DNA of 64,000 nucleotides, from the NCBI GenBank assembly GCA_944363935.1, contig CALVVT010000073.1:4226-68225 (forward strand), written 5' to 3'. Positions 4,308 through 43,048 of the stretch are shown one piece after another; positions within the stretch are counted from its first letter, which is position 1, and each line of letters opens with the position of its first letter. This DNA comes from an uncultured Bacilli bacterium (GTDB lineage: Bacteria; Bacillota_I; Bacilli_A; RF39; UBA660). The notes under the pieces are model-generated. The model had not been told where the DNA came from and made no database searches. It saw nothing but the letters and a program-made list of their open reading frames with translations. A program made the translations under genes and the position numbers.

Positions 4308-4703
4308 TTATCTATGCATACCTTCACTAACTTGATTTTGAAGGGTTTTATCTAATACTTTAGTTACTTTGGCATAAACTAAAGTCCGGCCATTATCTTT
4401 TTCAACTTCGTCTTCCACATAACTACCTTTTGGTGTACAAGTATTTAAAATAACAATATTTGATATTTCATTTTGATCATTAATTAAAGATACATCTCTT
4501 TTAGTAATGGCAGTATCTTCAAATCTATTTATTTTAGCAAGTAATTCTTCTTCTGAACTATAATTACCTGCTTCAGCCTCATAACCACTTAACTCACCGG
4601 CGGCAAAAACAATTGAAACAAACCTTGCTACTCTTTGGACTCTTATTTTCTTTTTTCTAATTTCTTCTATTTTTTCTTTATTCCTATAAGTTATATCTAC
4701 CAA
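4308..4703 (-). CDS. Hypothetical small protein (131 aa)
   Basis: Intact ORF with no family recognised. It is preceded by the duplicated promoter-containing repeat. Confidence 0.4.
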   Translation of the reverse strand: MVDITYRNKEKIEEIRKKKIRVQRVARFVSIVFAAGELSGYEAEAGNYSSEEELLAKINRFEDTAITKRDVSLINDQNEISNIVILNTCTPKGSYVEDEVEKDNGRTLVYAKVTKVLDKTLQNQVSEGMHR

Positions 4704-4723
4704 TTATATCACCTCTTGCTTAT

Positions 4724-4783
4724 ACTATAACACATTTCCCTTATAAATAAAAGTTTTTTTAAAGAAAAAATCCATACTTTACA
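4724..4783. repeat. 60-bp direct repeat, copy A (58/60 identical to copy B at 7002-7060); contains an extended -10 promoter on the minus strand
   Basis: ACTATAACACATTTCCCTTATAAATAAAAGTTTTTTTAAAGAAAAAATCCATACTTTACA. On the minus strand it reads ...TTTATAagggaaatgTGtTATAGT. Confidence 0.85.
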
Positions 4784-4894
4784 ATGAAAAGCATAATTTT
4801 ACTATTATACAAAAAAAGGGCTTTTTTTACCCTTGTCATACATTTGTTAGTACAATTCTTAAATGAATGTACATACTTTTTTTCGTTAATTAAA

Positions 4895-6937
4895 TTACTT
4901 TTTTAATATTTTTGGCCTTTCTAAACATAACATAGGTTGATTATACACTATCAATTGATGTTGAGCTCTAGTACATACAACATAATATAAATTTCTTTCT
5001 TCTTCTGTATAATAATTATCAGGTTTAGTATATGCTATAACGCCGTCAAATTCTAATCCTTTAGCTATATATGAAGGCAAAATAGAAATTTTGTTTTTTT
5101 CTATAGTATTTTTGACAAATATATTCTCTGAAGAATTAGCCACAAGTCTTTTGTGAAGATTAATTATCTCTTTATCGTCTTTTGTAATAATAGCTATTGT
5201 TTGCATACCATCATTTTTCATTTTCTTCAAATCGCTAATAATATCATTTATATCATTACTTTCTCTTTTTAAAACAGAAAAACCGTTTTTACCTCTAATT
5301 GAAGTGATATTATTAATATTTAAAATTTTACTAGCAAATTCAATTATCTCTGAACTAGATCTATATGTTTTATTTAATTCTATATAATTAGCTTCATTAT
5401 CAAAAATGATTTTTAATTCTTTTAATGATTTATATGTACTATCAGGATTTATAGATTGGTTAATATCACCTAAAATAGTGAAAAAAGCTTTAGGAAAAAT
5501 TTTCTTTAATATCCAAAATTGTAATGAAGAATAATCTTGAGCTTCATCAACAACCACGTGTTTAACTTCACTATTATATGGAAAATCATTTAACTGAAAA
5601 TAGATGTATATAATTCCCGTAATATCATCATAATATAATTTATTATTCTCTCTAATAATATTTTTCTCTTCTAAAAATCCTTTAAAAATATGAACAGGAT
5701 CAAGGTCAATATTTATTTTTTCATTTAAAATGTTTTTAATCTTTGTTTTATATTTCTTTAAAGGAACATTAATACTATGACAAATGTATTCAGCAATTTT
5801 TTCTATTCTTTCGGTAAAAGGTAATTTTTTATACTTAATCATTAATAAATCGTTTAATTCTAAATGATTAAAACAAAAGCCATTTAAAGTAATTCCTGTT
5901 TTAAAAATATGCTTTTTTAAATAACTATCAAGATATTTATCTAATTCTTCTTTTGTGTATAGGTTTTTTACTATACTCTCATTTCTTAATTCGTTATATT
6001 TACGTTTTAAAAAATCTGAAAATGTTTCTAACTTTTTATATTTTTTTAAATAAGTTTTTGCAATATCACTAAAAGTAGTATTTAAAACATTTTCTTCACC
6101 TAATTCAGGTAAAACGTCAGAAATATATTCTGAAAAAACATTATTAGGAGAAAATATTAAAATATTTTTAGAAGTTAAACCTTTTTCTTTATATAATAAA
6201 TAAGCAATGCGGTGTAGGGCAACAGAAGTTTTACCACTTCCCGCAATCCCTTGAACAATTAAATATTTATCTTTCGTATTCCTAATAATTTGATTTTGCT
6301 CTTTTTGAATTGTTGTAACAATATTTTTCATTTTATCACTTGAGTGAGAAGATAAAACTTCTTGCAACATATCATCATCAATATTAATATCATTTTCAAT
6401 AATTCTTTTTAATTTACCATCTTCGATTTTATATTGTCTTCTTAAGGTAATTTCACCATCTATCACTCCCATTGGAGCTTCATAACTAGCTTTTCCAACC
6501 GTATAATCGTAAAAAAGGCTAGAAATTGGTGCTCGCCAATCAAATATATAATTTTTATTTTCATTATTAAGACCATATAATCCTATATATACCTTAATTG
6601 TTTCATCCGGTAATTTAAAATCTATTCTTCCAAAATAAGCCTTATCTAATATTTTTTCATATTTAAATACTTTTTTAATTTTAGCATTAGTAATTTCTAC
6701 TTTAGCATCAGTGTCATTTAATAAATTACCATACTCAAGATCACTTAAGCTTTTACAATCATTCCATATATATTTTTTCAATTCGAAGATTTCCTGTTTT
6801 TCTTTGGTAATTTTAACATCAATTTCTTTAATAAATTTTTTTGCCACTTTTTTCACTTCAGTTAAATATTTATTTTCCTCTTTTAATGTATTATTATTAA
6901 CATTCATAGCATCACCTGTTAAATAATATTTTAACAC
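4895..6937 (-). CDS. helD: HelD-like UvrD/Rep superfamily helicase (DNA helicase IV / RNA polymerase recycling factor family)
   Basis: 680 aa. Walker A GIAGSGKTSVALHRIAYLL, DEAQD box (VVVDEAQDYS), UvrD-type C-terminal motifs and a HelD-like N-terminal domain. Confidence 0.75.
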   Translation of the reverse strand: MLKYYLTGDAMNVNNNTLKEENKYLTEVKKVAKKFIKEIDVKITKEKQEIFELKKYIWNDCKSLSDLEYGNLLNDTDAKVEITNAKIKKVFKYEKILDKAYFGRIDFKLPDETIKVYIGLYGLNNENKNYIFDWRAPISSLFYDYTVGKASYEAPMGVIDGEITLRRQYKIEDGKLKRIIENDINIDDDMLQEVLSSHSSDKMKNIVTTIQKEQNQIIRNTKDKYLIVQGIAGSGKTSVALHRIAYLLYKEKGLTSKNILIFSPNNVFSEYISDVLPELGEENVLNTTFSDIAKTYLKKYKKLETFSDFLKRKYNELRNESIVKNLYTKEELDKYLDSYLKKHIFKTGITLNGFCFNHLELNDLLMIKYKKLPFTERIEKIAEYICHSINVPLKKYKTKIKNILNEKINIDLDPVHIFKGFLEEKNIIRENNKLYYDDITGIIYIYFQLNDFPYNSEVKHVVVDEAQDYSSLQFWILKKIFPKAFFTILGDINQSINPDSTYKSLKELKIIFDNEANYIELNKTYRSSSEIIEFASKILNINNITSIRGKNGFSVLKRESNDINDIISDLKKMKNDGMQTIAIITKDDKEIINLHKRLVANSSENIFVKNTIEKNKISILPSYIAKGLEFDGVIAYTKPDNYYTEEERNLYYVVCTRAQHQLIVYNQPMLCLERPKILKK

Positions 6938-7060: not shown

Positions 7061-8812
7061 TTATTCAAGTATAGCTTTAATTCTTCTAACACCAGCACTA
7101 CTAGCTTCTTCTTTCTTTATTTTAAAATGTCCAAGTTCACTAGTATTTTTAACATGAGGGCCTCCACATAATTCTTTAGAAATATTTCCAATACTATAAA
7201 CTGTAACAATATCAGGATATTTGTCTATAAACATACATTCAGCACCTGATTTTAAAGCATCTTCTTTACTCATTTCTTCACTAGTTACTTCTAATCCTTC
7301 TTTAATCCAATTATTTACTAACTGTTCTACAGCTTCTTTTTCTTCGTCAGTTAATTTATGATCACAAGCAAAGTCAAAACGCATTCTTTCTTTAGTTATA
7401 TTACTACCTTTTTGATGGACACTATTACCAATAACTTGTTTTAAAGCCGCATTCAATAAATGAGTTGCTGTATGATATTTAGTTTCAATAATACTATTAC
7501 CTGATAAACCACCTTTAAATTTACCAGCGGCAGCGGTTCTTGATTTTTCTTGATGCTCCTTAAATTTTTCTTTAAAACCTTCTGTATCGACAATAATATT
7601 TTCTTCTTTAGCAAGTTCTTCAGTAAGTTCAATTGGAAAACCATAAGTATCATATAATTTAAACGCTAAATCTTTATTAATTTTATTATCAGTTAAATTT
7701 TTCTTTATTTTTTCAAACTCTTTTAAACCTTTTTCTAAAGTTCGATTAAATTTATTTTTTTCGTTTTTTAAAACTTCTAAAACAACATCTTTATTTTCTT
7801 TAATCTCATGATAATAATTTTCATATTTAGTCATGATTAATAAAGCTATTTCTTTATCCCAGTCACTATTAATATCGATATTTAATTTTTTCGCATGTCT
7901 AATAGCTCTTCTTAAAAGTCTTCTTAAAATATAACCTTGATCGGTATTACTTGGTTTTATACCAGCAGGGTCAGCAGCAATAAAGACAGCGGTTCTTAAA
8001 TGATCAGCTATTATTCGCATTGATTTTTCATGACCTTGATAAGGTAAATTAGTAATTTCTACAATTTTATCAATAACATCTTGCCAAATAGAACTTTGAT
8101 AGTTATCATTTACCCCTTCTAAAACAGCCGTTATTCTTTCAACTCCCATACCAGTATCAACATTTTTACTTGGAAGTTCAGTAACATTACCATCTTCGTC
8201 TTGATAAAATTCCATAAAGACATTATTCCAAATTTCAACCCATCTATCGTCTTCAGGATTAAATTTTTCAGGAATTTCGTCGTCACTTCTAAAGTAAAAT
8301 ATTTCAGTATCGCCTCCACAAGGACCACTAGTTCCAGCTATCCAGAAATTATCTTCTCTTCCTAAATAAGCAATTCTCTCTTCTTTAATTCCAAGACTTT
8401 TCCATTTATTTGCAGATACCTCATCCCGTGGTATTTTTTCGTCGCCTTTATAAACAGTAATAGCTAGTTTTTCTAAAGGAATATTTAAAACTTTAGTTAA
8501 AAATTCAAAGCTGTATTCAATACTTTCATTTTTAAAATAATCTCCTAAACTCCAGTTTCCTAACATTTCAAAAAATGTATGATGGGTTGTATCTCCAACT
8601 TCGTCTAAATCATTGGTTCTAATACATTTTTGATAATCACAAAGTCTCGTTCCATAAGGATGATGCTCTCCCATTAAATAAGGAACAAGAGGCTGCATTC
8701 CTGCAGTATTAAATAATACTGAAGGGTCATTTTCCGGTACAACTGGGGCTGAAGGAATCTGTTTGTGACCTTTACTAACAAAATATTCTATAAATAAATC
8801 TTTAATGTTCAT
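7061..8812 (-). CDS. alaS: Alanine--tRNA ligase, short form: catalytic domain plus editing domain, no C-Ala domain
   Basis: HHTFFEMLGNWSLGDYFK, DTGMGVERI and YDTYGFP match the AlaRS catalytic core. The C-terminus has the editing HTATH...CGGPH zinc motifs. The protein stops after GVRRIKAILE at 583 aa, whereas canonical AlaRS is about 870 aa. Confidence 0.8.
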   Translation of the reverse strand: MNIKDLFIEYFVSKGHKQIPSAPVVPENDPSVLFNTAGMQPLVPYLMGEHHPYGTRLCDYQKCIRTNDLDEVGDTTHHTFFEMLGNWSLGDYFKNESIEYSFEFLTKVLNIPLEKLAITVYKGDEKIPRDEVSANKWKSLGIKEERIAYLGREDNFWIAGTSGPCGGDTEIFYFRSDDEIPEKFNPEDDRWVEIWNNVFMEFYQDEDGNVTELPSKNVDTGMGVERITAVLEGVNDNYQSSIWQDVIDKIVEITNLPYQGHEKSMRIIADHLRTAVFIAADPAGIKPSNTDQGYILRRLLRRAIRHAKKLNIDINSDWDKEIALLIMTKYENYYHEIKENKDVVLEVLKNEKNKFNRTLEKGLKEFEKIKKNLTDNKINKDLAFKLYDTYGFPIELTEELAKEENIIVDTEGFKEKFKEHQEKSRTAAAGKFKGGLSGNSIIETKYHTATHLLNAALKQVIGNSVHQKGSNITKERMRFDFACDHKLTDEEKEAVEQLVNNWIKEGLEVTSEEMSKEDALKSGAECMFIDKYPDIVTVYSIGNISKELCGGPHVKNTSELGHFKIKKEEASSAGVRRIKAILE

Positions 8813-9347
8813 AATCCACCTCTTCTAAAATTTTTCTGGTTTTTAAAATTAAATTTTCGGTATTTCCATCGTTTTCAAGCAAATAATCATAATTTTGATA
8901 ATTATCCAAAGCATGCTCGGTAATATGTTTTTTTTGTTTTTCGGTTAAATTATTTTCAAAACCAGGTCTTTCTACTTTTATAATAAATACATCTTTAAAT
9001 TTACTTTTAGGAATGTCTAACTCATTAGGAAATCTGCCACCAGATATAACGATAACATCAAAGAAATAACTATAAACAACAATATCTTCACATAATCTAT
9101 TTATAAAGAAATCTTTATTTATTTTTTCTCTTACTATATCTGTCCCAATAGTTTGTAAAAGTTCCCTAGGTTTTGTTTCATCCCTACCATCCCAATTAGT
9201 AATTTTCATAGCATAATTTTTTATATAATCAGAAAAACCTAATCTTACTACTTTTTTATTTTTATTTTCATAATAATTTACTATTTCTGTTGCCACAGTA
9301 TCTTTACCAGTTCTAGCTTTACCAGCTAATAAAAATATTTTTGTCAT
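8802..9347 (-). CDS. P-loop NTPase, deoxynucleoside monophosphate kinase-like
   Basis: N-terminal LAGKARTGKDT Walker A typical of dNMP-kinase-like proteins. It overlaps the alaS start by 11 nt and is the first ORF after the T-box leader. Confidence 0.5.
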   Translation of the reverse strand: MTKIFLLAGKARTGKDTVATEIVNYYENKNKKVVRLGFSDYIKNYAMKITNWDGRDETKPRELLQTIGTDIVREKINKDFFINRLCEDIVVYSYFFDVIVISGGRFPNELDIPKSKFKDVFIIKVERPGFENNLTEKQKKHITEHALDNYQNYDYLLENDGNTENLILKTRKILEEVDYEH

Positions 9348-9361
9348 AACTTTCTCCTCTC

Positions 9362-9525
9362 AAAAGAAAAACCACGGGCTATTTCTAGGAACGAAAAGCC
9401 GTGGTACCATCCTAATTAAACTTAATTATGATAACGGTTTTACCCGGAAATGTTTACATTTCTCTCGAAAATAGCTTCAGTTAATTTTATTTACTAGTTT
9501 TCACCGGCCACTAGCTCTCTATAAA
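9362..9525 (-). promoter_or_regulatory. T-box riboswitch leader (probable Ala specifier GCU) with terminator/antiterminator
   Basis: Minus strand reads AGAGAGCUAGUGG ... GAA-GCU-A ... then the T-box motif AAUUAGGAUGGUACCACGG (fwd 9399-9417). The terminator is CCACGGCUUUUCGUUCCUAGAAAUAGCCCGUGG (fwd 9372-9404) followed by U5CUUUU (fwd 9362-9371). Confidence 0.85.
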
Positions 9526-9537
9526 ATAAATATTAAC

Positions 9538-10719
9538 TTACTCTTTTTTCTCAACGATTTCTTTATCAGCAGTTATATCGTCTAAAGTATAATCTAAAAG
9601 TCCATACTTTTTATTGAAAAACTGAAAAATTGTTTTAATAGCTGCAAGGATTGGTGTTGATAAAAGCATTCCAATTATTCCGAAGAAATAACCAAACACA
9701 AGTAATCCTAGCATAATAACAATAGCATTTAATTTAGTCGTTTTTGACATAATAAATGGTTGTAATAAATTACCTTCTAAAAATTGAATAACAACTACGA
9801 TAATTAAAGTTAAAATTCCAATAGTCGGACTTTGCGTAAGACCAACAATTACTGCTGGAGCACCACCAATATAAGGTCCAATATAAGGAATAATATTAGT
9901 AAGTCCACAGAAAAATCCGAATAAAACAGGAGCTTCTAATCCAACTATCCAAAAACCAATCGATGTAAGTACAAATACGGCTCCACAGTCAATAAGGGCT
10001 CCAGTTACATAACTTCTTAAAGAATCATTAACTTCACTTGTAAGTTCAATTCCAGTTTCCCGATATTTAGCTGGTAATAATTTTAAAATACTTTTCATAC
10101 CTCTAAAATTAACCATTAATAAGAAACCGATGATTAAACCAATTGCAAAAGTTCCGATTCCAGAAAATAAACTTGAAACAAAATTAATTAAAGTATTGGG
10201 AAGTGCACTAGATATACCAACAGCAATGTCTTCGAATTTATCAAAAAATTGATTTTTAAGTTCATTAGCATCGATATAATCTAAAGTTTTTAAATAATCA
10301 AATATATTTAAAAACCAACCTTTTATCGAATTAAATATATCTGGAGCAGCTTTAGCAAAATCCATTATTTGACCAGCTAATAAAGGAATTAAAGCTGACA
10401 TAACTAACGCTACAATTACAAATAAAATAATATAAGTAATAATAGTTCCAAATACTCTTTTAATATGTTTTTTTTCTAAAAATGAAACAAATGGTTCAAA
10501 AAGCCAAGCGACAACTAAACCAATAATTAAAGGGACTAATATTTTAATAATAGTTCCAATAAACTCTAAAATTTGGGTTTCTTTAAATAATCTTATAACA
10601 ATATAAATAACCAGAAAAGCCAAAAGTAAATAAATTACTTTTAATACTCTAGCCGATAAGCTTGCTACTTCGTTTATTTTTTTGGTATCAAGCCCATCTA
10701 ATTTATTTTTTTTAAACAT
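9538..10719 (-). CDS. AI-2E family transporter (PerM/UPF0118)
   Basis: 393 aa polytopic membrane protein with AI-2E-like topology and a conserved C-terminal half. Confidence 0.6.
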   Translation of the reverse strand: MFKKNKLDGLDTKKINEVASLSARVLKVIYLLLAFLVIYIVIRLFKETQILEFIGTIIKILVPLIIGLVVAWLFEPFVSFLEKKHIKRVFGTIITYIILFVIVALVMSALIPLLAGQIMDFAKAAPDIFNSIKGWFLNIFDYLKTLDYIDANELKNQFFDKFEDIAVGISSALPNTLINFVSSLFSGIGTFAIGLIIGFLLMVNFRGMKSILKLLPAKYRETGIELTSEVNDSLRSYVTGALIDCGAVFVLTSIGFWIVGLEAPVLFGFFCGLTNIIPYIGPYIGGAPAVIVGLTQSPTIGILTLIIVVVIQFLEGNLLQPFIMSKTTKLNAIVIMLGLLVFGYFFGIIGMLLSTPILAAIKTIFQFFNKKYGLLDYTLDDITADKEIVEKKE

Positions 10720-20602: not shown

Positions 20603-22294
20603 TTAATTTCTATTAGTATGTATTTTTTTTACTTTATTATTTAAAACTTTTAACATTAAATCAAAATCAATAATTTCTAAATTAGTAATTGGGTGAAATT
20701 CCCTATTTCTAATTATTCTTTTCTTATAATACCTCATATGTCTAGAATCTTTTATAGTTTTTCTAGTTTTTAATATTCTTAAATTTCTAATTGTAAGTAC
20801 TACATTTCGTAAATCCTGTGGTTTAGGTATAACTTTCACCTTTGGTTCTTTTATTTTCGGTGCTTCTGTTACTATTGGTTTTACTTCTGGTACTTTTTCT
20901 ATCACTTTAGGTGCTTCTGTTACCACTGGTTTTACTTCCGGCACTTTTTCCATCACTTTAGGTGCTTCTGTTACCACTGGTTTTGCTTCTGGTACTTTTT
21001 CTATTACTTTAGGTGCTTCTGTTACCACTGGTTTTACTTCCGGCACTTTTTCTATTACTTTAGGTGCTTCAGTTACCATTGGTTTTGCTTCTGGTACTTT
21101 TTCTATCACTTTAGGTGCTTCTGTTACCACTGGTTTTACTTCCGGCACTTTTTCTATCACTTTAGGTGCTTCTGTTACCACTGGTTTTACTTCTGGTACT
21201 TTTTCTATCACTTTAGGTGATTCAGTTACTACTGGCTTTATTTTAGCTTTAGAATCTGATTTGATATTAGGAATTTCAGTAAACACTGATGGCTTTGGTA
21301 CTTCTTTAATAACTTCTTTCTTTAAAGTTTCCATAGGTTTCATTAAATCTGGTTTACTATTAAAAATATTATCTTTTTTAACTGGTAACTTTTCTTTAGA
21401 ATTTACTATATTTTTATTAATAAACGTTTTTTTGTTATCTTTTACTTCTGATTTTAACTCTTCTTTAACTTCATTAATTTCCAAAGTTTCTGGCTCTTTA
21501 ACTAAAGAAACTGAACTCTTTTCTTCTAATAAAGGAACAGCAGTTTCTTTAGGATTAATGTCTAAAATTTCAGGTTTTTCTTTTTTAGAAAGTTCGTCTA
21601 AACTTATTAATTTAGCTTCTAAAACAACATTTTTGTTAGCTTTTTTTTCGTTTATTTCTTCATTAATAATATCTTCATTACTAATTTTTTCATCTTTTAA
21701 AATATTGTCTTTTTCGTCAAGCATTTCAGTAATTCTATTAATAATTGTAATAACACATACAGAAACAATCTGTAAAAGAAAAACTCCCATTAATAACTGC
21801 ATTAAAGTTAAAACATCACTATTAGAATATAACGCATTTTCTCTATAAATATTAATGTCATTAGACTGTATAGTTACTAAAACTAAACAAAATAAAGTTT
21901 GAACAATAGCAAAACCTGTAAAATTAATTATTCTAACTACTTTAACTAATTTTTTATAAAAAACTGTAATTAAACAAATAATAGCTGATAAAATAATAAC
22001 AACAAATAAGGTAATAAAATTAGGAAAATAAAGGGTCATAAAAAAGCCATTTACAACATTATCAAATAAATCAAATAAAGTACTACCACCGATAAATAAA
22101 ACAACGGCAATAACGATAATATAAATAAGTAAAATTATTTTTTTTACATCTTTTTCCTTTTTAGTGGTATCTCTTTCTAAAAACATAACAACCATAGGTA
22201 CCATTAAAATAATTAAGAAAAAAGGATGGGCGATTATATTATCAAAAAGTATTTGTAATTTTTCTAGTAATGAAAGCTCTTCCAATTTTACCAC
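20603..22294 (-). CDS. Polytopic membrane protein with a C-terminal Pro/Lys/Glu-rich 17-aa tandem-repeat region
   Basis: 563 aa with N-terminal multi-TM segments. The motif KPVVTEAPKVIEKVPEV repeats about 8 times, encoded by 51-bp tandem DNA repeats. Confidence 0.6.
   Translation of the reverse strand: MVKLEELSLLEKLQILFDNIIAHPFFLIILMVPMVVMFLERDTTKKEKDVKKIILLIYIIVIAVVLFIGGSTLFDLFDNVVNGFFMTLYFPNFITLFVVIILSAIICLITVFYKKLVKVVRIINFTGFAIVQTLFCLVLVTIQSNDINIYRENALYSNSDVLTLMQLLMGVFLLQIVSVCVITIINRITEMLDEKDNILKDEKISNEDIINEEINEKKANKNVVLEAKLISLDELSKKEKPEILDINPKETAVPLLEEKSSVSLVKEPETLEINEVKEELKSEVKDNKKTFINKNIVNSKEKLPVKKDNIFNSKPDLMKPMETLKKEVIKEVPKPSVFTEIPNIKSDSKAKIKPVVTESPKVIEKVPEVKPVVTEAPKVIEKVPEVKPVVTEAPKVIEKVPEAKPMVTEAPKVIEKVPEVKPVVTEAPKVIEKVPEAKPVVTEAPKVMEKVPEVKPVVTEAPKVIEKVPEVKPIVTEAPKIKEPKVKVIPKPQDLRNVVLTIRNLRILKTRKTIKDSRHMRYYKKRIIRNREFHPITNLEIIDFDLMLKVLNNKVKKIHTNRN
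20858..21238. repeat. 51-bp tandem repeat, about 7.5 copies, inside the coding sequence
   Basis: Unit GGTGCTTCTGTTACCACTGGTTTTACTTCCGGCACTTTTTCTATCACTTTA with minor variants. Confidence 0.85.
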
Positions 22295-24238: not shown

Positions 24239-24351
24239 TATAAATATCTACTGTTCAATTGTGTACGCTACTGTTCAATTGTGTACGTTACTGTTCAATT
24301 GTGTACGCTACTGTTCAATTGTGTACGTTACTGTTCAATTGTGTACGCTAC
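24239..24351. repeat. 20-bp tandem repeat array (~5.6 copies) with strictly alternating C/T at one position
   Basis: CTGTTCAATTGTGTACG(C/T)TA x5 plus a partial copy. Each unit contains the CAATTG palindrome. It lies in the intergenic region between the Cse60-like gene and the AlbA_2 gene. Confidence 0.9.
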
Positions 24352-24370
24352 TGTTCAATTTATTTATTAA

Positions 24371-38881: not shown

Positions 38882-41269
38882 TTATCTCACTACAATATTT
38901 ACAAGTTTTTTAGGTACAGTTATTACTTTAACAATTTCTTTACCTTCAGTATATTTTTTAACATTTTCACTTTCTAAAGCAAGTTTTTCCATTTCTTCTT
39001 TACTAATATCACTAGAAACATCTATTTTACCACGAACTTTACCATTTACCTGTACCACCATTTCAAAAGTATCATTAATTGTTTTATTTTCGTCATAAAT
39101 TGGCCAAGGACTTTTAGCAAGAACTTCACCTAATTTATTTATTTCGTTAATTTCTTCAGTAATGTGTGGTGCGATTGGATTTAATAAATGAACTAAAACT
39201 CTTAAATCGTCTTTACTTACACTGTCATAAGTTTCATAATCATTAAGTAAAATCATTAAAGCTGATACTACTGTATTATATTTCATAACTTGTAAATCAT
39301 TAGTAACTTTTTTTATTGTTTGATGGACTAAAGTTTCATTAGTATAACCTTCTTTATCATTTAAATGTTCACCTAAACGCCAAATTCTATCTAAAAATTT
39401 CTTACACCCTTTAAGACCATTTAAACTCCAAGCGGCATCTTTTTCATAGTCTCCAATAAACATCTCATAGGTTCTTAATGCATCGGCCCCATATTCGTTA
39501 ACAATATCGTCAGGATTAATAACATTACCTTTAGATTTACTCATTTTTTCGCCATTAGGGCCTAAAATCATACCATGAGAAACCCTAACATCAATTGGTT
39601 CTTTATTAGGAACAAGCCCAATATTATATAAAAATTGATTCCAAAAACGAGCATATAATAAATGTCTAGCAGTGTGTTCCATTCCACCATTATACCAGTC
39701 TACTTTACCCCAATAATTTAAAGCTTCTTTTGAGACGAATTCTTTATCATTATTTGGATCCATATAACGAAGGAAATACCAACTTGAACCAGCCCAGTTT
39801 GGCATAGTGTCAGTTTCTCTTCTAGCTTTTCCACCACATTTTGGACAAGCTACATTTACCCAATCTTCAATATTAGCAAGCGGACTTTCACCATCTTCAG
39901 TTGGTTCATAATTAGCCACATCAGGAAGTTTTACTGGAAGTTCTTCGTCAGGAACTGGTACCCAACCACATTTTTCACAATGAATTAAAGGTATTGGTTC
40001 TCCCCAAAATCTTTGTCTTGAAAAAATCCAATCTTGAAGACGATAATTTACTTTTTCCCGGCCAATTCCTTTTTCTTTTAAATAATCAAGCATTTTATGA
40101 ATTGCTTCTTCTTTATTAGTAATTCCATTTAGAATACCAGAATTAATCATTTTTCCATCGTCAGTATAAGCATTATTACTAATATCACCTTCAATAACAG
40201 GAATAATATCAATATTAAACTTTTGCGCAAAAGCGTAATCTCTTTCGTCATGAGCTGGAACAGCCATTATCGCGCCTGTACCATAACCCATCATAACATA
40301 ATCAGAAATCCATATTTCTATTTCTTTATTAGTAACAGGATTAATAGCGTTTATTCCTTCTAATCTAACACCTGTTTTTTCTTTTGCTAGTTCAGTTCTT
40401 TCAAATTCAGTTTTGGTTTTCGCGTATTCCTGATATTTTATAACTTCTTCCATATTAGTTATTTTATCTTTTAAAGTATTAATAATTGGATGTTCAGGAG
40501 CAACAACCATAAAAGTTACTCCATATAAAGTATCAGGTCTAGTTGTATAAACAGTTAAAGTTTCATTTAAAACTTTAAAATCAACTTCAGCACCTTTACT
40601 TTTACCAATCCAATTTATTTGCCCAAGTTTTACTCTATCGGCAAATTTAGTATCGTCAAGTCCAGTAAGTAAATCTTCAGCATAGTCACTCATTCGAAGT
40701 AACCATTGTTCTTTTTCTTTTTGAATAACTTTACTTCCACATCTTTCACAAACACCTCCAGCCGCATCTTCATTTGAAAGTCCTGTTTTACATTTAGGAC
40801 ACCAGTTTATATTCTTTTTAGCTTTATAAGCCATACCATGTTTATAAAATTGTAAAAACTGCCACTGGGTCCATTTATAATACTCTGGATCGGTTGTTGC
40901 GAATTCTCTACTCCAATCAAAAGATATCCCTAAATTTTGTATTTGTTTTTTAAATGTTTTTATATTTTCTTTAACAGCATCTTTAGGATGGATATGATTT
41001 TTTATCGCATATTGTTCTGCCGGAGCACCAAATGCATCCCATCCCATTGGAAATAATACATTTAACCCCGCCATCCGTTTCATTCTGGCAACAGCATCTA
41101 AAGCTGTATAACTACGAACATGACCAACATGAAGACCAGAACCAGATGGATAAGGGAATTCTACTAATACATAATATTTTTCTTTTTTATCACCTGTAAT
41201 TGCTTTAAATGTTTCATTTTCTTCCCAATATTTTTGCCATTTTTTCTCTACTTCTTTAAAATTATACAT
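38882..41269 (-). CDS. leuS: Leucine--tRNA ligase
   Basis: 795 aa with HVGHVRSY (HIGH) and KMSKSKGN (KMSKS) motifs plus the CP1 editing domain. Confidence 0.97.
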   Translation of the reverse strand: MYNFKEVEKKWQKYWEENETFKAITGDKKEKYYVLVEFPYPSGSGLHVGHVRSYTALDAVARMKRMAGLNVLFPMGWDAFGAPAEQYAIKNHIHPKDAVKENIKTFKKQIQNLGISFDWSREFATTDPEYYKWTQWQFLQFYKHGMAYKAKKNINWCPKCKTGLSNEDAAGGVCERCGSKVIQKEKEQWLLRMSDYAEDLLTGLDDTKFADRVKLGQINWIGKSKGAEVDFKVLNETLTVYTTRPDTLYGVTFMVVAPEHPIINTLKDKITNMEEVIKYQEYAKTKTEFERTELAKEKTGVRLEGINAINPVTNKEIEIWISDYVMMGYGTGAIMAVPAHDERDYAFAQKFNIDIIPVIEGDISNNAYTDDGKMINSGILNGITNKEEAIHKMLDYLKEKGIGREKVNYRLQDWIFSRQRFWGEPIPLIHCEKCGWVPVPDEELPVKLPDVANYEPTEDGESPLANIEDWVNVACPKCGGKARRETDTMPNWAGSSWYFLRYMDPNNDKEFVSKEALNYWGKVDWYNGGMEHTARHLLYARFWNQFLYNIGLVPNKEPIDVRVSHGMILGPNGEKMSKSKGNVINPDDIVNEYGADALRTYEMFIGDYEKDAAWSLNGLKGCKKFLDRIWRLGEHLNDKEGYTNETLVHQTIKKVTNDLQVMKYNTVVSALMILLNDYETYDSVSKDDLRVLVHLLNPIAPHITEEINEINKLGEVLAKSPWPIYDENKTINDTFEMVVQVNGKVRGKIDVSSDISKEEMEKLALESENVKKYTEGKEIVKVITVPKKLVNIVVR

Positions 41270-41613
41270 TATTTACCTTCTTTCTTTTTATAATGACTAC
41301 CAATTATATTATAAATAATATAAATTGATGGCATTAATATAATAAATGCTAACATAAGTTTTAATATAAAATTATCAACTATTCCAACAATTGCCACTGT
41401 AGCTCCAATTATAAAAGCATTTGTAAGGGCCACTGTATTAGCAAAACTTTTAAGATTTAATTTATCAATATCTAATTTAAACTTTATTTTAAAATATTCT
41501 AATTGTTTACTTGACTTAAATTTTTCTAATCCTTTTTTTCTTAAAACAATAATAAATAAATATAATAAATAAATAATTAGAAAACAAAAAATAAACGTTA
41601 AAATATAAAGCAT
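41269..41613 (-). CDS. Small integral membrane protein (114 aa)
   Basis: Three predicted TM helices and RBS AAGGAGGAAGG. It lies between fic and leuS. Confidence 0.5.
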   Translation of the reverse strand: MLYILTFIFCFLIIYLLYLFIIVLRKKGLEKFKSSKQLEYFKIKFKLDIDKLNLKSFANTVALTNAFIIGATVAIVGIVDNFILKLMLAFIILMPSIYIIYNIIGSHYKKKEGK

Positions 41614-41635
41614 AATCCCTTCCTCCTTAATTTTA

Positions 41636-41690
41636 AATTCGGCTTACGTTCGGCTTATTTTCGGCTTAAATTCGGCTTAAATTCGGCTTA
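41636..41690. repeat. Five tandem copies of a ~10-11 bp unit (minus strand TAAGCCGAAtt) immediately upstream of the small membrane gene RBS
   Basis: Forward sequence is aaattcggcttacgttcggcttattttcggcttaaattcggcttaaattcggcttaag. Confidence 0.85.
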
Positions 41691-42779
41691 AGTATGTTCT
41701 AATAAATATTTTATATATTTTTCAGTCAAAATATAATCAACATTTCTTTTCTGATTCATGTCATAACGAGTTAAAAATTCTTTTTGCATCCATTTCTTTA
41801 ACCAATTATTTGCTGTATCCAAACTTATTTTAAAATGAGAAGCTATATCTTTAGCTTTTATTTTTCCATGATTAATTATAAAATTGGCAACCCATCTTTC
41901 TCTTTTATCTAAAGTATTAAATAAATTTACTTCATTTTGACTTTTTTCATAGATATTTTTAATTCTTTTTTCTACAATATCAAAAGTTTTTGACATTACA
42001 GAAACAAAATACTCAAGCCAAGCAGTAATATCAGCTTTATTTCTTCCAAAATAATAGTTATGATGCAATCCCATTTGTAAAGAATTATAATATTCTTCAA
42101 TATTTTTGTCATAATATTCTTCTAAAACATAAAAGCCTCTTAAATCATAATCATATAACTTCAAAATATAATTAGCAAGTAATCTTGCACATCTCCCATT
42201 TCCATCCCAAAAAGGATGAATAGTTAAAAACTTATAAGCAAAAATACCTGCTTTAATTGGTACTGGAATATCATTACTTTCATTAAGCTCAATTATCATA
42301 TCCTTTATTAAAGAACTAACGTCAGAAGCTTCTGGTGGTAAGTATACTATCTTTTTAGTCAATGAATCTTCCACAACATTTTGACCATCTCGAAAATTAT
42401 TTTTATATGTTATTTTTTTACCGATAACTAAATTATGTAATTTTAAAATTAAATCTTCAGTAATAGGCTCTTTTTTGTCACTTAAATCATTTAAATACAT
42501 CAAAGCATTATAATAATTTCTTACCTCTAAAACATTTCTTTCATGTGATTTTATATTGTTTTCAATAACTTCCTTAACTTCATTTAAATTTAAACGATTG
42601 CCTTCTATTTTTGTAGAATAATGAACTCTTTTTACAATAGTTTCTTTTTTTATTTCTTCTTCAATAGATAACGGTAATTTCAATAATTTAGTTATTTCTT
42701 TAACATTATTTATCTTTATTAAATCATTAACTAACTTATTAGTATAATGCCATTTTATATCCATTTTTTCACTAACCAT
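41688..42779 (-). CDS. fic: Fic/DOC-family protein (putative AMPylase) with a C-terminal wHTH
   Basis: 363 aa with the Fic motif HPFWDGNGRCARL. It sits directly downstream of the leuS-type T-box leader. Confidence 0.85.
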   Translation of the reverse strand: MVSEKMDIKWHYTNKLVNDLIKINNVKEITKLLKLPLSIEEEIKKETIVKRVHYSTKIEGNRLNLNEVKEVIENNIKSHERNVLEVRNYYNALMYLNDLSDKKEPITEDLILKLHNLVIGKKITYKNNFRDGQNVVEDSLTKKIVYLPPEASDVSSLIKDMIIELNESNDIPVPIKAGIFAYKFLTIHPFWDGNGRCARLLANYILKLYDYDLRGFYVLEEYYDKNIEEYYNSLQMGLHHNYYFGRNKADITAWLEYFVSVMSKTFDIVEKRIKNIYEKSQNEVNLFNTLDKRERWVANFIINHGKIKAKDIASHFKISLDTANNWLKKWMQKEFLTRYDMNQKRNVDYILTEKYIKYLLEHT

Positions 42780-42791
42780 AACTCACCTCTT

Positions 42792-42985
42792 TAACAAAAA
42801 AGTATTATGAGTATAAGGACGAATAAATCGTGGTACCACCTTACTTTCATAATACTATGATTATCTCAAAAGCTTAACGTGCTTTACCCGTCATATACTT
42901 ATCATATATGCTGCTCATAAGTAAGTTCATAGCCTTTCTTTAAAAGTTTCCACCAACCACTTTCTCTCTATAAAAGAAATAACTA
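42792..42985 (-). promoter_or_regulatory. T-box riboswitch leader (probable Leu specifier CUU)
   Basis: Minus strand reads AGAGAGAAAGUGG ... AUGAA-CUU-A ... then the T-box motif AAGUAAGGUGGUACCACG (fwd 42829-42846). The terminator stem is AGUAUUAUGA/UCAUAAUACU (fwd 42801-42856) followed by UUUUUUG. Confidence 0.85.
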
Positions 42986-43048
42986 TTACTACTCTTAATC
43001 CTCGCTTTGCTTATTTAATTATAGTATAAAATTAAAGGTTAATCAAGG

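What the first reader, a model, noticed from the sequence alone, without database searches (positions are those of the whole stretch)
41269..42985. A Leu-type T-box leader drives fic (AMPylase) and a small membrane protein ahead of leuS
The T-box (specifier GAA-CUU-A, T-box motif and terminator) is followed, with no intervening terminator I can see, by a 363-aa Fic protein (HPFWDGNGRCARL), an 11-bp x5 tandem repeat, a 114-aa membrane protein and then leuS. Placing a Fic-family enzyme under control of uncharged tRNA-Leu is unusual and would link its expression to amino-acid starvation. Fic could also be a toxin-like or regulatory module inserted into an essential operon.
Basis: partly seen in the sequence, partly recalled or inferred. 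Interest (0 to 1): 0.7.

Follow-up and report, generated by a model that had tools for sequence, protein, structure and literature searches.

The report
Defence-type Fic gene parked in leuS leader
A leucine-sensing T-box leader that normally sits directly in front of the leucyl-tRNA synthetase operon here also carries an optional SoFic-type Fic (AMPylase) gene, so the gene is probably made only when tRNA-Leu is uncharged; it always comes with a conserved 11-bp repeat array that looks like its own DNA-binding site.

Summary
The order is promoter-like site, Leu T-box (Rfam 124.6 bits, specifier CUU), terminator, fic, 11-bp x5 array, mem, leuS. I found no second T-box and no terminator in between.

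Comparison changes the meaning:
- In about 30 related uncultured Bacilli, the same T-box abuts mem-leuS directly. That is the ancestral operon.
- fic is an insertion. Conspecific contigs (identical Mem) either carry it or lack it.
- The closest species has a YhcG nuclease gene in the same slot.

The protein is a class II Fic with a C-terminal winged helix. It matches the PADLOC SoFic anti-phage model (E 1.7e-45).

The repeat belongs to fic, not to leuS:
- All 13 genomic contexts of this Fic clade carry 2-7 copies of TAAGCC(G/A)AA-NN, usually starting at the stop codon.
- Copy number varies between strains.
- fic-less strains keep the array.
- An Asp/Asn switch at the start of the putative recognition helix tracks a G/A switch in the repeat.

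T-box control of fic therefore follows from the anatomy. It looks like opportunistic hitch-hiking by an accessory cassette. A functional link is hinted at, because three contexts adjoin aaRS genes, two of them behind T-boxes. No transcript data exist.

The parts
43018..43046 (-). Promoter-like site TTGATT-17-TATAAT just upstream of the T-box
   Evidence: 10 of 12 matches. The same arrangement occurs in L001. Promoter-like sites in this region as a whole occur at chance frequency, so this one is only positional evidence.
42812..43011 (-). T-box leader, full length
   Evidence: RF00230, 124.6 bits (gathering score 93), E 3.4e-27, model positions 1-219.
42922..42928 (-). Specifier GAA-CUU-A (Leu codon CUU at 42925-42923)
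   Evidence: Alignment and sequence. Relatives have CUU or CUC at the same place.
42796..42856 (-). Terminator hairpin plus U6. It is the antiterminator (AAGG/UGGUACC bulge/ACGA-UCGU/CCUU) extended at its base by AGUAUUAUGA:UCAUAAUACU.
   Evidence: -18.6 kcal/mol, z -4.22. Also.
41688..42779 (-). fic: class II Fic AMPylase with C-terminal winged helix, SoFic-like, 363 aa. Its SD (AGAGGTGA) is at 42783-42790, about 5 nt after the U-tract.
   Evidence: Pfam Fic 1.5e-16. (PADLOC SoFic 1.7e-45, residues 40-358). (NCBIfam SoFic 48 bits, far below its cutoff)..
42600..42617 (-). Inhibitory motif S55-T-K-I-E59-G60, of the form (S/T)xxxE(G/N), N-terminal to the Fic core (class II)
   Evidence: Translation. 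The residues are invariant in the 35-sequence alignment.
42183..42218 (-). Fic active-site motif H188-PFWDGNGRCA-R199
   Evidence: Conserved: ten positions invariant, H188 and R196 at 90% or more.
41724..41912 (-). [quoted passage not shown] The putative recognition helix starts at D321-TANNW.
   Evidence: MarR, FeoC and HTH hits at 298-340. (pLDDT 88-90, H-H-H-E-E topology). (MarR-family matches). (D/N covariation with the repeat).
41636..41690 (-). Five tandem 11-bp units TAAGCCGAA+NN. The first TAA is the fic stop codon, and the array puts a TAA in all three frames.
   Evidence: The array is conserved in all 13 contexts of the fic clade. Copy number is 4-6 in fic-carrying conspecific strains. 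The array is retained in fic-less strains.
41269..41613 (-). mem: 114-aa protein with three hydrophobic segments, no family assigned. Its SD (AAGGAGG) is at 41622-41628. It is the conserved partner of leuS.
   Evidence: It lies directly upstream of leuS in about 30 related loci. Only 18 database relatives were found.
38882..41269 (-). leuS (leucyl-tRNA synthetase, 795 aa). Its start overlaps the mem stop by 1 nt.

Best explanation
The T-box is the ancestral Leu-tRNA-sensing leader of a two-gene operon, mem-leuS, in this lineage of uncultured gut Bacilli.

In this species an accessory cassette sits between the T-box terminator and the mem ribosome-binding site. The cassette has its own Shine-Dalgarno sequence, a SoFic-type class II Fic-wHTH AMPylase gene, and a 3' array of 11-bp repeats. 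No room is left for a promoter between the terminator and fic.

Transcription starts at the promoter upstream of the T-box. It passes the terminator only when uncharged tRNA-Leu stabilises the antiterminator. It then runs through fic and the unstructured array into mem-leuS. Fic synthesis is therefore tied to leucyl-tRNA charging. That tie is a consequence of where the cassette landed, not a dedicated circuit.

Inserts that carried a terminator would cut off leuS, which is presumably essential, and would be lost. That explains why the terminator that follows the array at other loci is missing here.

The array is most likely the cognate double-stranded DNA site for the Fic protein's own winged helix. 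One monomer would bind per helical turn. Binding could tether the enzyme or switch its activity, as DNA does for CbFic2, or it could block read-through transcription.

What is shown and what is inferred:
- Shown: the anatomy, the insertion and its polymorphism, the family assignment, and the array-fic linkage.
- Inferred: co-transcription (about 0.75), DNA binding by the winged helix at the array (about 0.45), and a defence or toxin role (about 0.5).
For: Leader and operon:
- The T-box and terminator are intact.
- The fic start lies about 17 nt after the U-tract and has an SD.
- No second T-box was found, and no terminator between fic and leuS. The spacer RNA has z +1.48. Strong terminators follow the array in L081 (z -5.25) and L104 (z -4.9).
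- Relatives have the T-box core 395-563 nt (mostly 400-470) from the leuS start, with only mem between. The Leu specifier is conserved.

Insertion and polymorphism:
- Contigs with an identical Mem protein carry fic in L133, L135, L138 and L141. They lack it in L134, L136, L137, L139 and L142, where the T-box core lies 115-131 nt from the mem ATG.
- fic alleles at this locus are intact, with dN/dS of about 0.07-0.35 at dS up to 0.12.
- L001 has a YhcG nuclease gene plus one repeat unit in the slot.

Family:
- PADLOC SoFic at 154 bits.
- Full-length Foldseek alignments to 4RGL, CbFic2 and SoFic.

Array:
- It is present in all 13 contexts.
- D321 goes with GCCGAA arrays (27 loci, 12 contexts). 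N321 goes with GCCAAA arrays (23 loci).

Literature:
- SoFic binds DNA through its wHTH and AMPylates EF-Tu (bioRxiv 10.64898/2026.07.09.737422).
- CbFic2 is switched by DNA binding (PMC10628234).
- EcSofic is toxic and is neutralised by something encoded just downstream (PMC12249575).
Against: - No transcript data exist.
- Promoter-like hexamers occur inside fic, for example 42112-42084 with 11 of 12 matches, although at chance frequency. They could feed mem-leuS independently.
- The D/N versus G/A covariation amounts to essentially one evolutionary switch.
- An operator at the 3' end of its own gene is unusual. SoFic and CccR bind their own promoters.
- Distant Fic-wHTH homologues lack a 3' array.
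- The AF2 model is poor overall (pLDDT 63.8).
- fic-less strains keep perfect array units, so the array can persist without its presumed binding protein.
Confidence: 0.65

Rival explanations
1. Adaptive coupling. This Fic clade is functionally tied to tRNA charging or translation, so its placement behind T-boxes and next to aaRS genes is selected. Uncharged tRNA would be the intended trigger for an enzyme that modifies a translation factor.
For: - Three of 13 distinct contexts directly adjoin aaRS genes: leuS here, thrS in L081 and pheST in L117.
- Two of them lie behind T-boxes. The L081 T-box scores 80.8 bits, E 3.7e-18, with a Thr ACU specifier.
- With an assumed 3% background, P(>=3 of 13) = 0.006. 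Leaving out the ascertained case, P(>=2 of 12) = 0.049.
- Two further contexts lie in rpsP or trmD-rplS neighbourhoods.
- SoFic AMPylates EF-Tu (bioRxiv 10.64898/2026.07.09.737422).
Against: - Ten of 13 contexts are not next to an aaRS gene. They include defence or mobile-element neighbourhoods: Xre plus a second Fic, Zeta toxin, Shedu SduA_C, RhuM, Endonuclease_NS.
- fic is dispensable within the species.
- The enrichment is borderline once the ascertained case is removed, and the background rate is my estimate.
- Small genomes are dense in translation genes.
Confidence: 0.2
2. Independent expression. mem-leuS is driven by a promoter inside fic or the array, and the T-box now controls only fic or is a relic.
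For: - Promoter-like sites on the minus strand inside fic: 42112-42084 (11 of 12), 41983-41955 and 41834-41805.
- A TTGATT-17-TATATA element lies in the last 60 nt of fic (read).
Against: - The number of promoter-like sites equals the number expected from shuffles (39 against 39.6).
- In fic-less conspecific strains the same T-box lies 115-131 nt from the mem ATG, with only the array between. It is therefore the leuS leader, and it is kept intact in fic-carrying strains.
- There is no terminator after fic, although other loci have one.
Confidence: 0.15
3. The array is a landing pad. The 11-bp array would be a recombination or attachment site into which promoterless genes (fic, yhcG) are inserted. 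fic-less strains with an array would then be empty sites.
For: - Array-only alleles occur in conspecific strains, with copy number from 3 to at least 10.
- L001 has a different gene (yhcG) followed by one unit in the same slot.
- fic always ends exactly at the first unit.
- In L087 and L094 a long duplication of the target 5'UTR flanks fic.
Against: - Naive sites in other species have no array.
- The array is never seen on the left side of fic.
- No recombinase gene was seen next to fic in the contexts listed.
- Another yhcG copy (L063) has no unit downstream.
- The array has no hairpin potential.
- The D/N-G/A covariation points to recognition by the Fic winged helix.
- The 9 nt before the array in fic-less strains resemble the last codons of other fic alleles, which suggests deletion.
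Confidence: 0.1
4. The array is a neutral by-product of slippage with no function.
For: - Copy number varies freely: 2-7 across contexts, 3 to at least 10 within one species.
- Distant homologues lack the array.
Against: The 9-nt core is nearly invariant: positions 1-3, 5 and 8 are invariant in 61 units. This holds across cassettes whose proteins differ by about 30%, in 13 unrelated flanks. The 2-nt spacer and all surrounding non-coding DNA differ. The start of the array at the stop codon is also conserved.
Confidence: 0.1

Closest known systems
T-box riboswitch leaders of aminoacyl-tRNA synthetase genes (Rfam RF00230), e.g. Bacillus leuS
   Same: It has full-length Stem I with a Leu specifier, a T-box sequence with a UGGU bulge, and a terminator with a U-tract. 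It lies upstream of leuS. In Bacillaceae loci the T-box core is about 100 nt from leuS.
   Different: Two extra genes (fic and mem) and a repeat array lie between the leader and leuS. The predicted terminator is the antiterminator extended at its base using the Stem III 3' arm. As I recall the canonical design, the terminator instead competes for the antiterminator's 3' strand.
SoFic single-gene anti-phage defence / class II Fic-wHTH AMPylases: SoFic, EcSofic-AS1, CbFic2, CccR (bioRxiv 10.1101/2022.05.11.491447; PMC12249575; PMC10628234; PMC9755527; bioRxiv 10.64898/2026.07.09.737422)
   Same: It has the same N-terminal inhibitory helix motif, HxFxDGNGRxxR core and C-terminal winged helix. It matches the PADLOC SoFic model over nearly its full length. 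It is an accessory gene, often found among defence genes.
   Different: - Sequence similarity to S. oneidensis SoFic is low (NCBIfam 48 bits against a cutoff of 550).
- There is no AS1-like small ORF downstream. Instead there is an 11-bp array with stops in all three frames.
- The candidate DNA site lies at the 3' end of the gene, not in the promoter.
- Here the gene sits in a riboswitch-controlled essential operon.
Iteron or direct-repeat operators bound cooperatively at one site per helical turn, e.g. ParR on the 11-bp parC iterons of plasmid R1, or PhoB/OmpR winged helices on direct repeats (my own knowledge, not checked here)
   Same: It has head-to-tail repeats with an 11-bp period, a conserved core, a variable spacer, and a variable number of units next to a gene for a winged-helix protein.
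   Different: Binding has not been shown. The array begins at a stop codon and is transcribed as part of an mRNA.
Integron gene cassettes (promoterless ORF plus a 3' recombination site, expressed from an upstream host promoter)
   Same: The unit is a compact SD-ORF-3' element. It is found in many unrelated sites, co-oriented with and apparently dependent on upstream host transcription.
   Different: There is no attC-like imperfect palindrome (array RNA z +1.48). No integrase was seen. Only one gene family carries this end.

Membership tests
T-box leader (RF00230) | Covariance-model score above the curated gathering score over the full model | tested here: met
   124.6 bits against 93, model positions 1-219.
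T-box leader (RF00230) | Specifier loop GAA-codon-purine that matches the regulated amino acid | tested here: met
   GAA-CUU-A upstream of leuS. Relatives have CUU or CUC.
T-box leader (RF00230) | Antiterminator bulge UGGN to pair with the tRNA NCCA end, followed by an alternative terminator and U-tract | tested here: met
   The UGGUACC bulge is present, and the hairpin of -18.6 kcal/mol is followed by U6. The way the terminator competes with the antiterminator differs from the textbook layout.
T-box leader (RF00230) | Read-through induced by uncharged cognate tRNA | not testable with these tools
   Needs in vitro transcription or reporter assays.
Fic/Fido AMPylases (PF02661) | Fic domain plus catalytic motif HxFx(D/E)GNGRxxR | tested here: met
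   Pfam 61.5 bits against a cutoff of 24. The motif is H188-PFWDGNGRCA-R199, with ten positions invariant and H188 and R196 in at least 90% of 35 homologues.
Class II Fic (auto-inhibited) | Inhibitory motif (S/T)xxxE(G/N) on a helix N-terminal to the Fic core in the same chain | tested here: met
   S55-TKI-E59-G60, invariant in the clade.
SoFic-type defence protein | Near full-length match to the SoFic family model | tested here: inconclusive
   PADLOC SoFic E 1.7e-45, 154 bits, residues 40-358. The NCBIfam SoFic equivalog gives only 48 bits against a cutoff of 550. Foldseek aligns the full length to SoFic and CbFic2, but TM is about 0.3 on a model with pLDDT 63.8.
SoFic-type defence protein | C-terminal winged-helix DNA-binding domain | tested here: met
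   HTH-family Pfam hits at residues 298-340, below their cutoffs. The model has pLDDT 88-90 and H-H-H-E-E topology there. MarR-family structures match the C-terminus.
SoFic-type defence protein | Protection against phage, or toxicity by AMPylation | not testable with these tools
   Needs an experiment.
Sofic-AS1 toxin-antitoxin pair (PMC12249575) | Small protein-coding gene (about 47 aa) immediately downstream of the Fic gene | tested here: not met
   The 74 nt after fic are the array, with TAA in all three frames. mem follows, and it is the conserved partner of leuS in species without fic.
Integron-like gene cassette | 3' attC-type imperfect inverted repeat and an integrase in the vicinity | tested here: not met
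   The array has no fold (z +1.48). No integrase family appeared among the called neighbours.

The most novel reading that the evidence does not exclude
The fic gene and its 11-bp array form a two-part module in which a DNA repeat, not a protein, is the partner of a SoFic-type AMPylase. The winged helix would load onto the array, one protein per helical turn. That loading would hold the enzyme inactive or set its activity, acting as a cis-acting 'DNA antitoxin' or sensor. Parking the module in T-box or aaRS leaders would make uncharged tRNA the signal that raises its dose. This reading fits three observations: fic is never seen without the array, the array survives without fic, and in E. coli an ill-defined element just downstream of Sofic neutralises it.
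Probability: 0.18. Interest if true: 0.8.

Novelty: new variant of a known kind. Interest (0 to 1): 0.6.

Why it matters
- It gives a natural case of a defence or toxin-type enzyme whose expression is gated by a tRNA-sensing riboswitch because it sits in the leader of an essential operon. Natural fic-plus and fic-minus strains of one species are available for comparison.
- It identifies a conserved and testable DNA element, TAAGCC(G/A)AA at an 11-bp period, as the likely ligand of the winged helix in a large gut-bacterial clade of SoFic-like proteins. How SoFic-type AMPylases are held in check and activated is an open question.
- It shows that the ancestral leuS operon of these Bacilli includes an unknown small membrane protein.

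Tried and rejected
- Exact look-up of the window's Fic protein found nothing, although an identical cluster representative exists.
- My first regular expression for the T-box core was wrong and found almost nothing. It was corrected.
- Rfam at gathering score missed the thrS T-box in L081. It was recovered at 80.8 bits with the E-value threshold. No T-box was found in L117 upstream of fic-pheST.
- A viral-contig scan for three array units gave one hit. It lies on an unrelated contig with a large-virus-like capsid ORF and is not a fic locus.
- I tested whether the array is a general end of yhcG genes. The only other full-length yhcG copy in the fetched loci (L063) has none.
- I tested whether distant Fic-wHTH genes share a 3' array. 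A gut phage contig (33% identity) and a Streptococcus prophage MloA (27% identity) do not.
- No phage record holds a close relative; all hits are below 60% identity.
- The AF2 model was only moderately confident, so the fold search supports the architecture and not the details.
- GC3 of fic (0.135) is the same as that of leuS (0.146), so composition gives no sign of recent foreign origin.
- mem has no family in Pfam, NCBIfam, PADLOC or PHROGs.

Full report
**1. What is there**

All features are on the minus strand. Rfam finds a full-length T-box at 42812-43011 (124.6 bits, gathering score 93, E 3.4e-27). A promoter-like TTGATT-17-TATAAT lies just upstream at 43046-43018. The specifier reads GAA-CUU-A.

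The 3' end folds into a hairpin of -18.6 kcal/mol (z -4.2) followed by U6. About 5 nt after the U-tract comes AGAGGTGA, and then the ATG of a 363-aa ORF at 42779-41688. Its stop codon TAA is the first triplet of five 11-bp units TAAGCCGAA+NN.

Twenty-two nt after the array, behind an AAGGAGG, starts a 114-aa ORF with three hydrophobic segments (mem, 41613-41269). Its stop overlaps the leuS start by 1 nt (leuS 41269-38882).

Nothing separates these genes:
- There is no second T-box.
- There is no terminator-like site between fic and leuS, except a weak 5-bp stem inside fic.
- The fic-mem spacer RNA is less structured than its shuffles (z +1.48).

The T-box reaches 26 nt beyond the stated end coordinate.

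**2. The ancestral arrangement**

A scan of one genome per species with LeuRS returned 80 loci. The nearest are uncultured gut Bacilli, including relatives labelled CAG:822 or Tenericutes.

mem is found directly upstream of leuS in about 30 of them. fic is found in none. Rfam places a T-box 30-40 nt upstream of mem in L002-L006, L008-L010, L014 and L057. The T-box core lies 395-563 nt (mostly 400-470) from the leuS start throughout this group, against about 100 nt in Bacillaceae.

The junctions read 'terminator-U6, about 8 nt, SD, mem'. The specifier is CUU or CUC. The conserved unit is therefore T-box|mem-leuS, and fic is an insertion into its 5'UTR.

**3. The slot is variable**

The closest species (L001, LeuRS 89% identical) has a different gene between the same T-box and mem. 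It is a 320-aa YhcG/DUF1016 PDDEXK nuclease (Pfam 7.5e-52), followed by a single TAAGCCGAA unit just before the mem SD.

Contigs whose Mem protein is 100% identical to the window's, and so come from the same species, fall into two classes:
- fic present: L133, L135, L138, L141, with 5, 6, 4 and 5 repeat units.
- fic absent: L134, L136, L137, L139, L142, with the T-box core only 115-131 nt from the mem ATG.

The fic-less alleles still carry the array, with 3-4 units. The L140 contig starts inside an array of about ten units. In these alleles the array is preceded by 'aaaatctcaaaa', which resembles the last codons of other fic alleles. I read this as deletion of fic with the array left behind.

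Where fic is present it is intact and under purifying selection. dN/dS is about 0.07-0.35 at dS up to 0.12, which is comparable to leuS in the same strains. fic-less strains are interleaved with fic-carrying strains by leuS divergence.

**4. What the protein is**

- Pfam Fic domain.
- Catalytic motif H188-PFWDGNGRCA-R199.
- N-terminal inhibitory motif S55-TKI-E59-G60, which makes it class II. Both motifs are conserved in a 35-sequence alignment.
- A C-terminal winged helix, supported by weak HTH-family hits at 298-340, an AF2 model with pLDDT 88-90 there although 63.8 overall, and MarR-family structural matches.

Foldseek aligns the full length to 4RGL, CbFic2 (8CIL) and SoFic (3EQX). The PADLOC model for the SoFic anti-phage system matches residues 40-358 at E 1.7e-45. 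The NCBIfam SoFic equivalog is far below its cutoff (48 against 550 bits).

So this is a SoFic-like protein, not an orthologue of the Shewanella enzyme.

The literature on this family says:
- SoFic was reported as a single-gene defence system (bioRxiv 10.1101/2022.05.11.491447).
- EcSofic is toxic and is neutralised by a 47-codon gene just downstream, by an unknown mechanism (PMC12249575).
- SoFic AMPylates EF-Tu and binds its own promoter through the wHTH as a dimer (bioRxiv 10.64898/2026.07.09.737422).
- CbFic2 is switched between AMPylation and de-AMPylation by DNA binding (PMC10628234).

**5. The repeat belongs to fic**

About 1,400 homologues exist. The listed ones are 68-74% identical to the window's protein. 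I obtained DNA for 13 distinct genomic contexts.

Every full-length copy is followed by 2-7 units of TAAGCC(G/A)AA plus two variable bases:
- In 17 of the 19 loci tabulated, the first TAA is the stop codon. In the other two the ORF runs 22 nt into the array.
- Across 61 units, positions 1-3, 5 and 8 are invariant. Positions 10-11 vary.
- The surrounding non-coding DNA is unrelated between contexts.
- Copy number differs among near-identical loci, for example 3, 4 and 5 in L093, L088 and L087.
- Because 11 mod 3 = 2, three units put a stop in every frame.

Where nothing follows in the same direction, a strong terminator comes after the array (L081 z -5.25; L104 z -4.9). In the window and in L117, where aaRS genes follow, there is none.

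**6. A hint that the winged helix reads the array**

The helix-turn-helix segment ends in a family-invariant TANNW. The residue before it is Asp in all 27 loci (12 contexts) whose units are GCCGAA. It is Asn in all 23 loci of the one clade whose units are GCCAAA.

L094 sits in the same genomic context as the Asn clade. It has Asp and mainly GCCGAA units.

From general knowledge of protein-DNA contacts, Asp tends to contact cytosine and Asn tends to contact adenine. A G:C to A:T change is therefore the expected partner of an Asp-to-Asn change. This is essentially one evolutionary event, so it is suggestive only.

An 11-bp period is about one helical turn, as in known iteron or direct-repeat operators (my knowledge, not tested here).

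**7. Is the link to tRNA charging meaningful?**

By anatomy, Fic can only be made from T-box read-through transcripts, unless an internal promoter exists.

Among the 13 contexts, three adjoin aaRS genes:
- T-box(Leu)|fic|mem-leuS, in this window.
- T-box(Thr, ACU; 80.8 bits, E 3.7e-18)-thrS|fic|terminator, in L081.
- hydrolase|fic|pheS-pheT, in L117.

With an assumed 3% background, P(>=3 of 13) = 0.006. After removing the ascertained case, P(>=2 of 12) = 0.049.

The other contexts include Xre plus a second Fic, a mobile block with Zeta toxin or Shedu SduA_C, RhuM, Endonuclease_NS, and housekeeping clusters such as rpsP and trmD-rplS. In three loci fic itself is cut at about residue 200 by a block that carries a phosphoesterase and a cytosine methyltransferase-like gene.

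I conclude that hitch-hiking on host transcription is the main pattern. A specific affinity for aaRS operons is possible but unproven.

**8. Mechanism proposed**

The promoter fires and the T-box decides between termination and read-through. Read-through yields one mRNA that encodes Fic, Mem and LeuRS. The array is transcribed and does not terminate.

The insertion is tolerated because it brought no terminator. It is lost often because Fic is dispensable.

As DNA, the array probably binds the Fic winged helix. The consequence is unknown. It could tether the enzyme, switch its activity, or act as a roadblock.

**9. Verdict**

The finding is a new variant of known kinds: a T-box operon carrying a SoFic-type cassette, and a SoFic-like clade with a conserved 3' iteron array. 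Interest is 0.6.

Noticed in passing
window 7061-9563 (-): The second T-box (9384-9563, 114.2 bits) has an Ala specifier (GAA-GCU-A). It is followed by a 181-aa phage-type dNMP kinase-like ORF (8802-9347; Pfam DNMK 4.7e-17, PHROG 139 5e-41). That ORF overlaps the start of a short alaS (7061-8812, 583 aa). The layout, T-box | extra gene | aaRS, is the same as at leuS.
   Followed up: partly
window 42796-42862 (-); L001, L002, L004, L006 leaders: The predicted leuS T-box terminator is not a helix that competes for the antiterminator's 3' strand. It is the antiterminator itself, extended at its base by pairing of the Stem III 3' arm (AGUAUUAUGA) with UCAUAAUACU just before the U-tract. Stem III and the basal stem are therefore the mutually exclusive pair. 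The arrangement is conserved in relatives, with a U-G change in L002.
   Followed up: partly
window 41269-41613 (-) and about 30 related loci: The 114-aa three-segment membrane protein is translationally coupled to leuS. It is conserved between the T-box and leuS across this Bacilli lineage and has no family in Pfam, NCBIfam, PADLOC or PHROGs. Only 18 relatives were found in the 5.8-billion-protein index.
   Followed up: partly
L087 3900-3997 and 5135-5170; L094 5135-5230: In the commonest context, fic plus array is flanked by a long direct duplication of the terminator, promoter and 5'UTR of the downstream ABC-transporter operon (aaagtagatgaaatattctactttttttgatataat...). fic there uses a copy of its neighbour's promoter.
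   Followed up: no
L112, L113, L114, L116 about 4570-6650: fic is truncated near residue 195-205 by an inserted block that encodes a calcineurin-like phosphoesterase and a cytosine-5 methyltransferase-like protein.
   Followed up: no
L143 480-509 (MT835702.1, gut phage contig): A distant Fic-wHTH gene (33% identity) has no 3' array. It does have three direct 11-bp repeats (ATAGTGAAAAA) about 60 nt upstream of its start, next to a TATAAT.
   Followed up: no
L001 482-1111 (-), L104/L113/L116 1965-2318, L063 3279-4181: DUF1016/YhcG genes or N-terminal fragments recur close to the leuS T-box or to fic in several of these genomes.
   Followed up: no
L117 621-1800: A split IS605-family TnpB (OrfB_IS605) with a structured-looking 3' flank lies just upstream of the hydrolase-fic-pheST block. 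No T-box for pheS was detected there.
   Followed up: no
window 20855-21240 and 24248-24360: Two strong tandem repeats were seen: 51 bp x7.6 (score 632) and 20 bp x5.7 (score 212). They were not examined.
   Followed up: no
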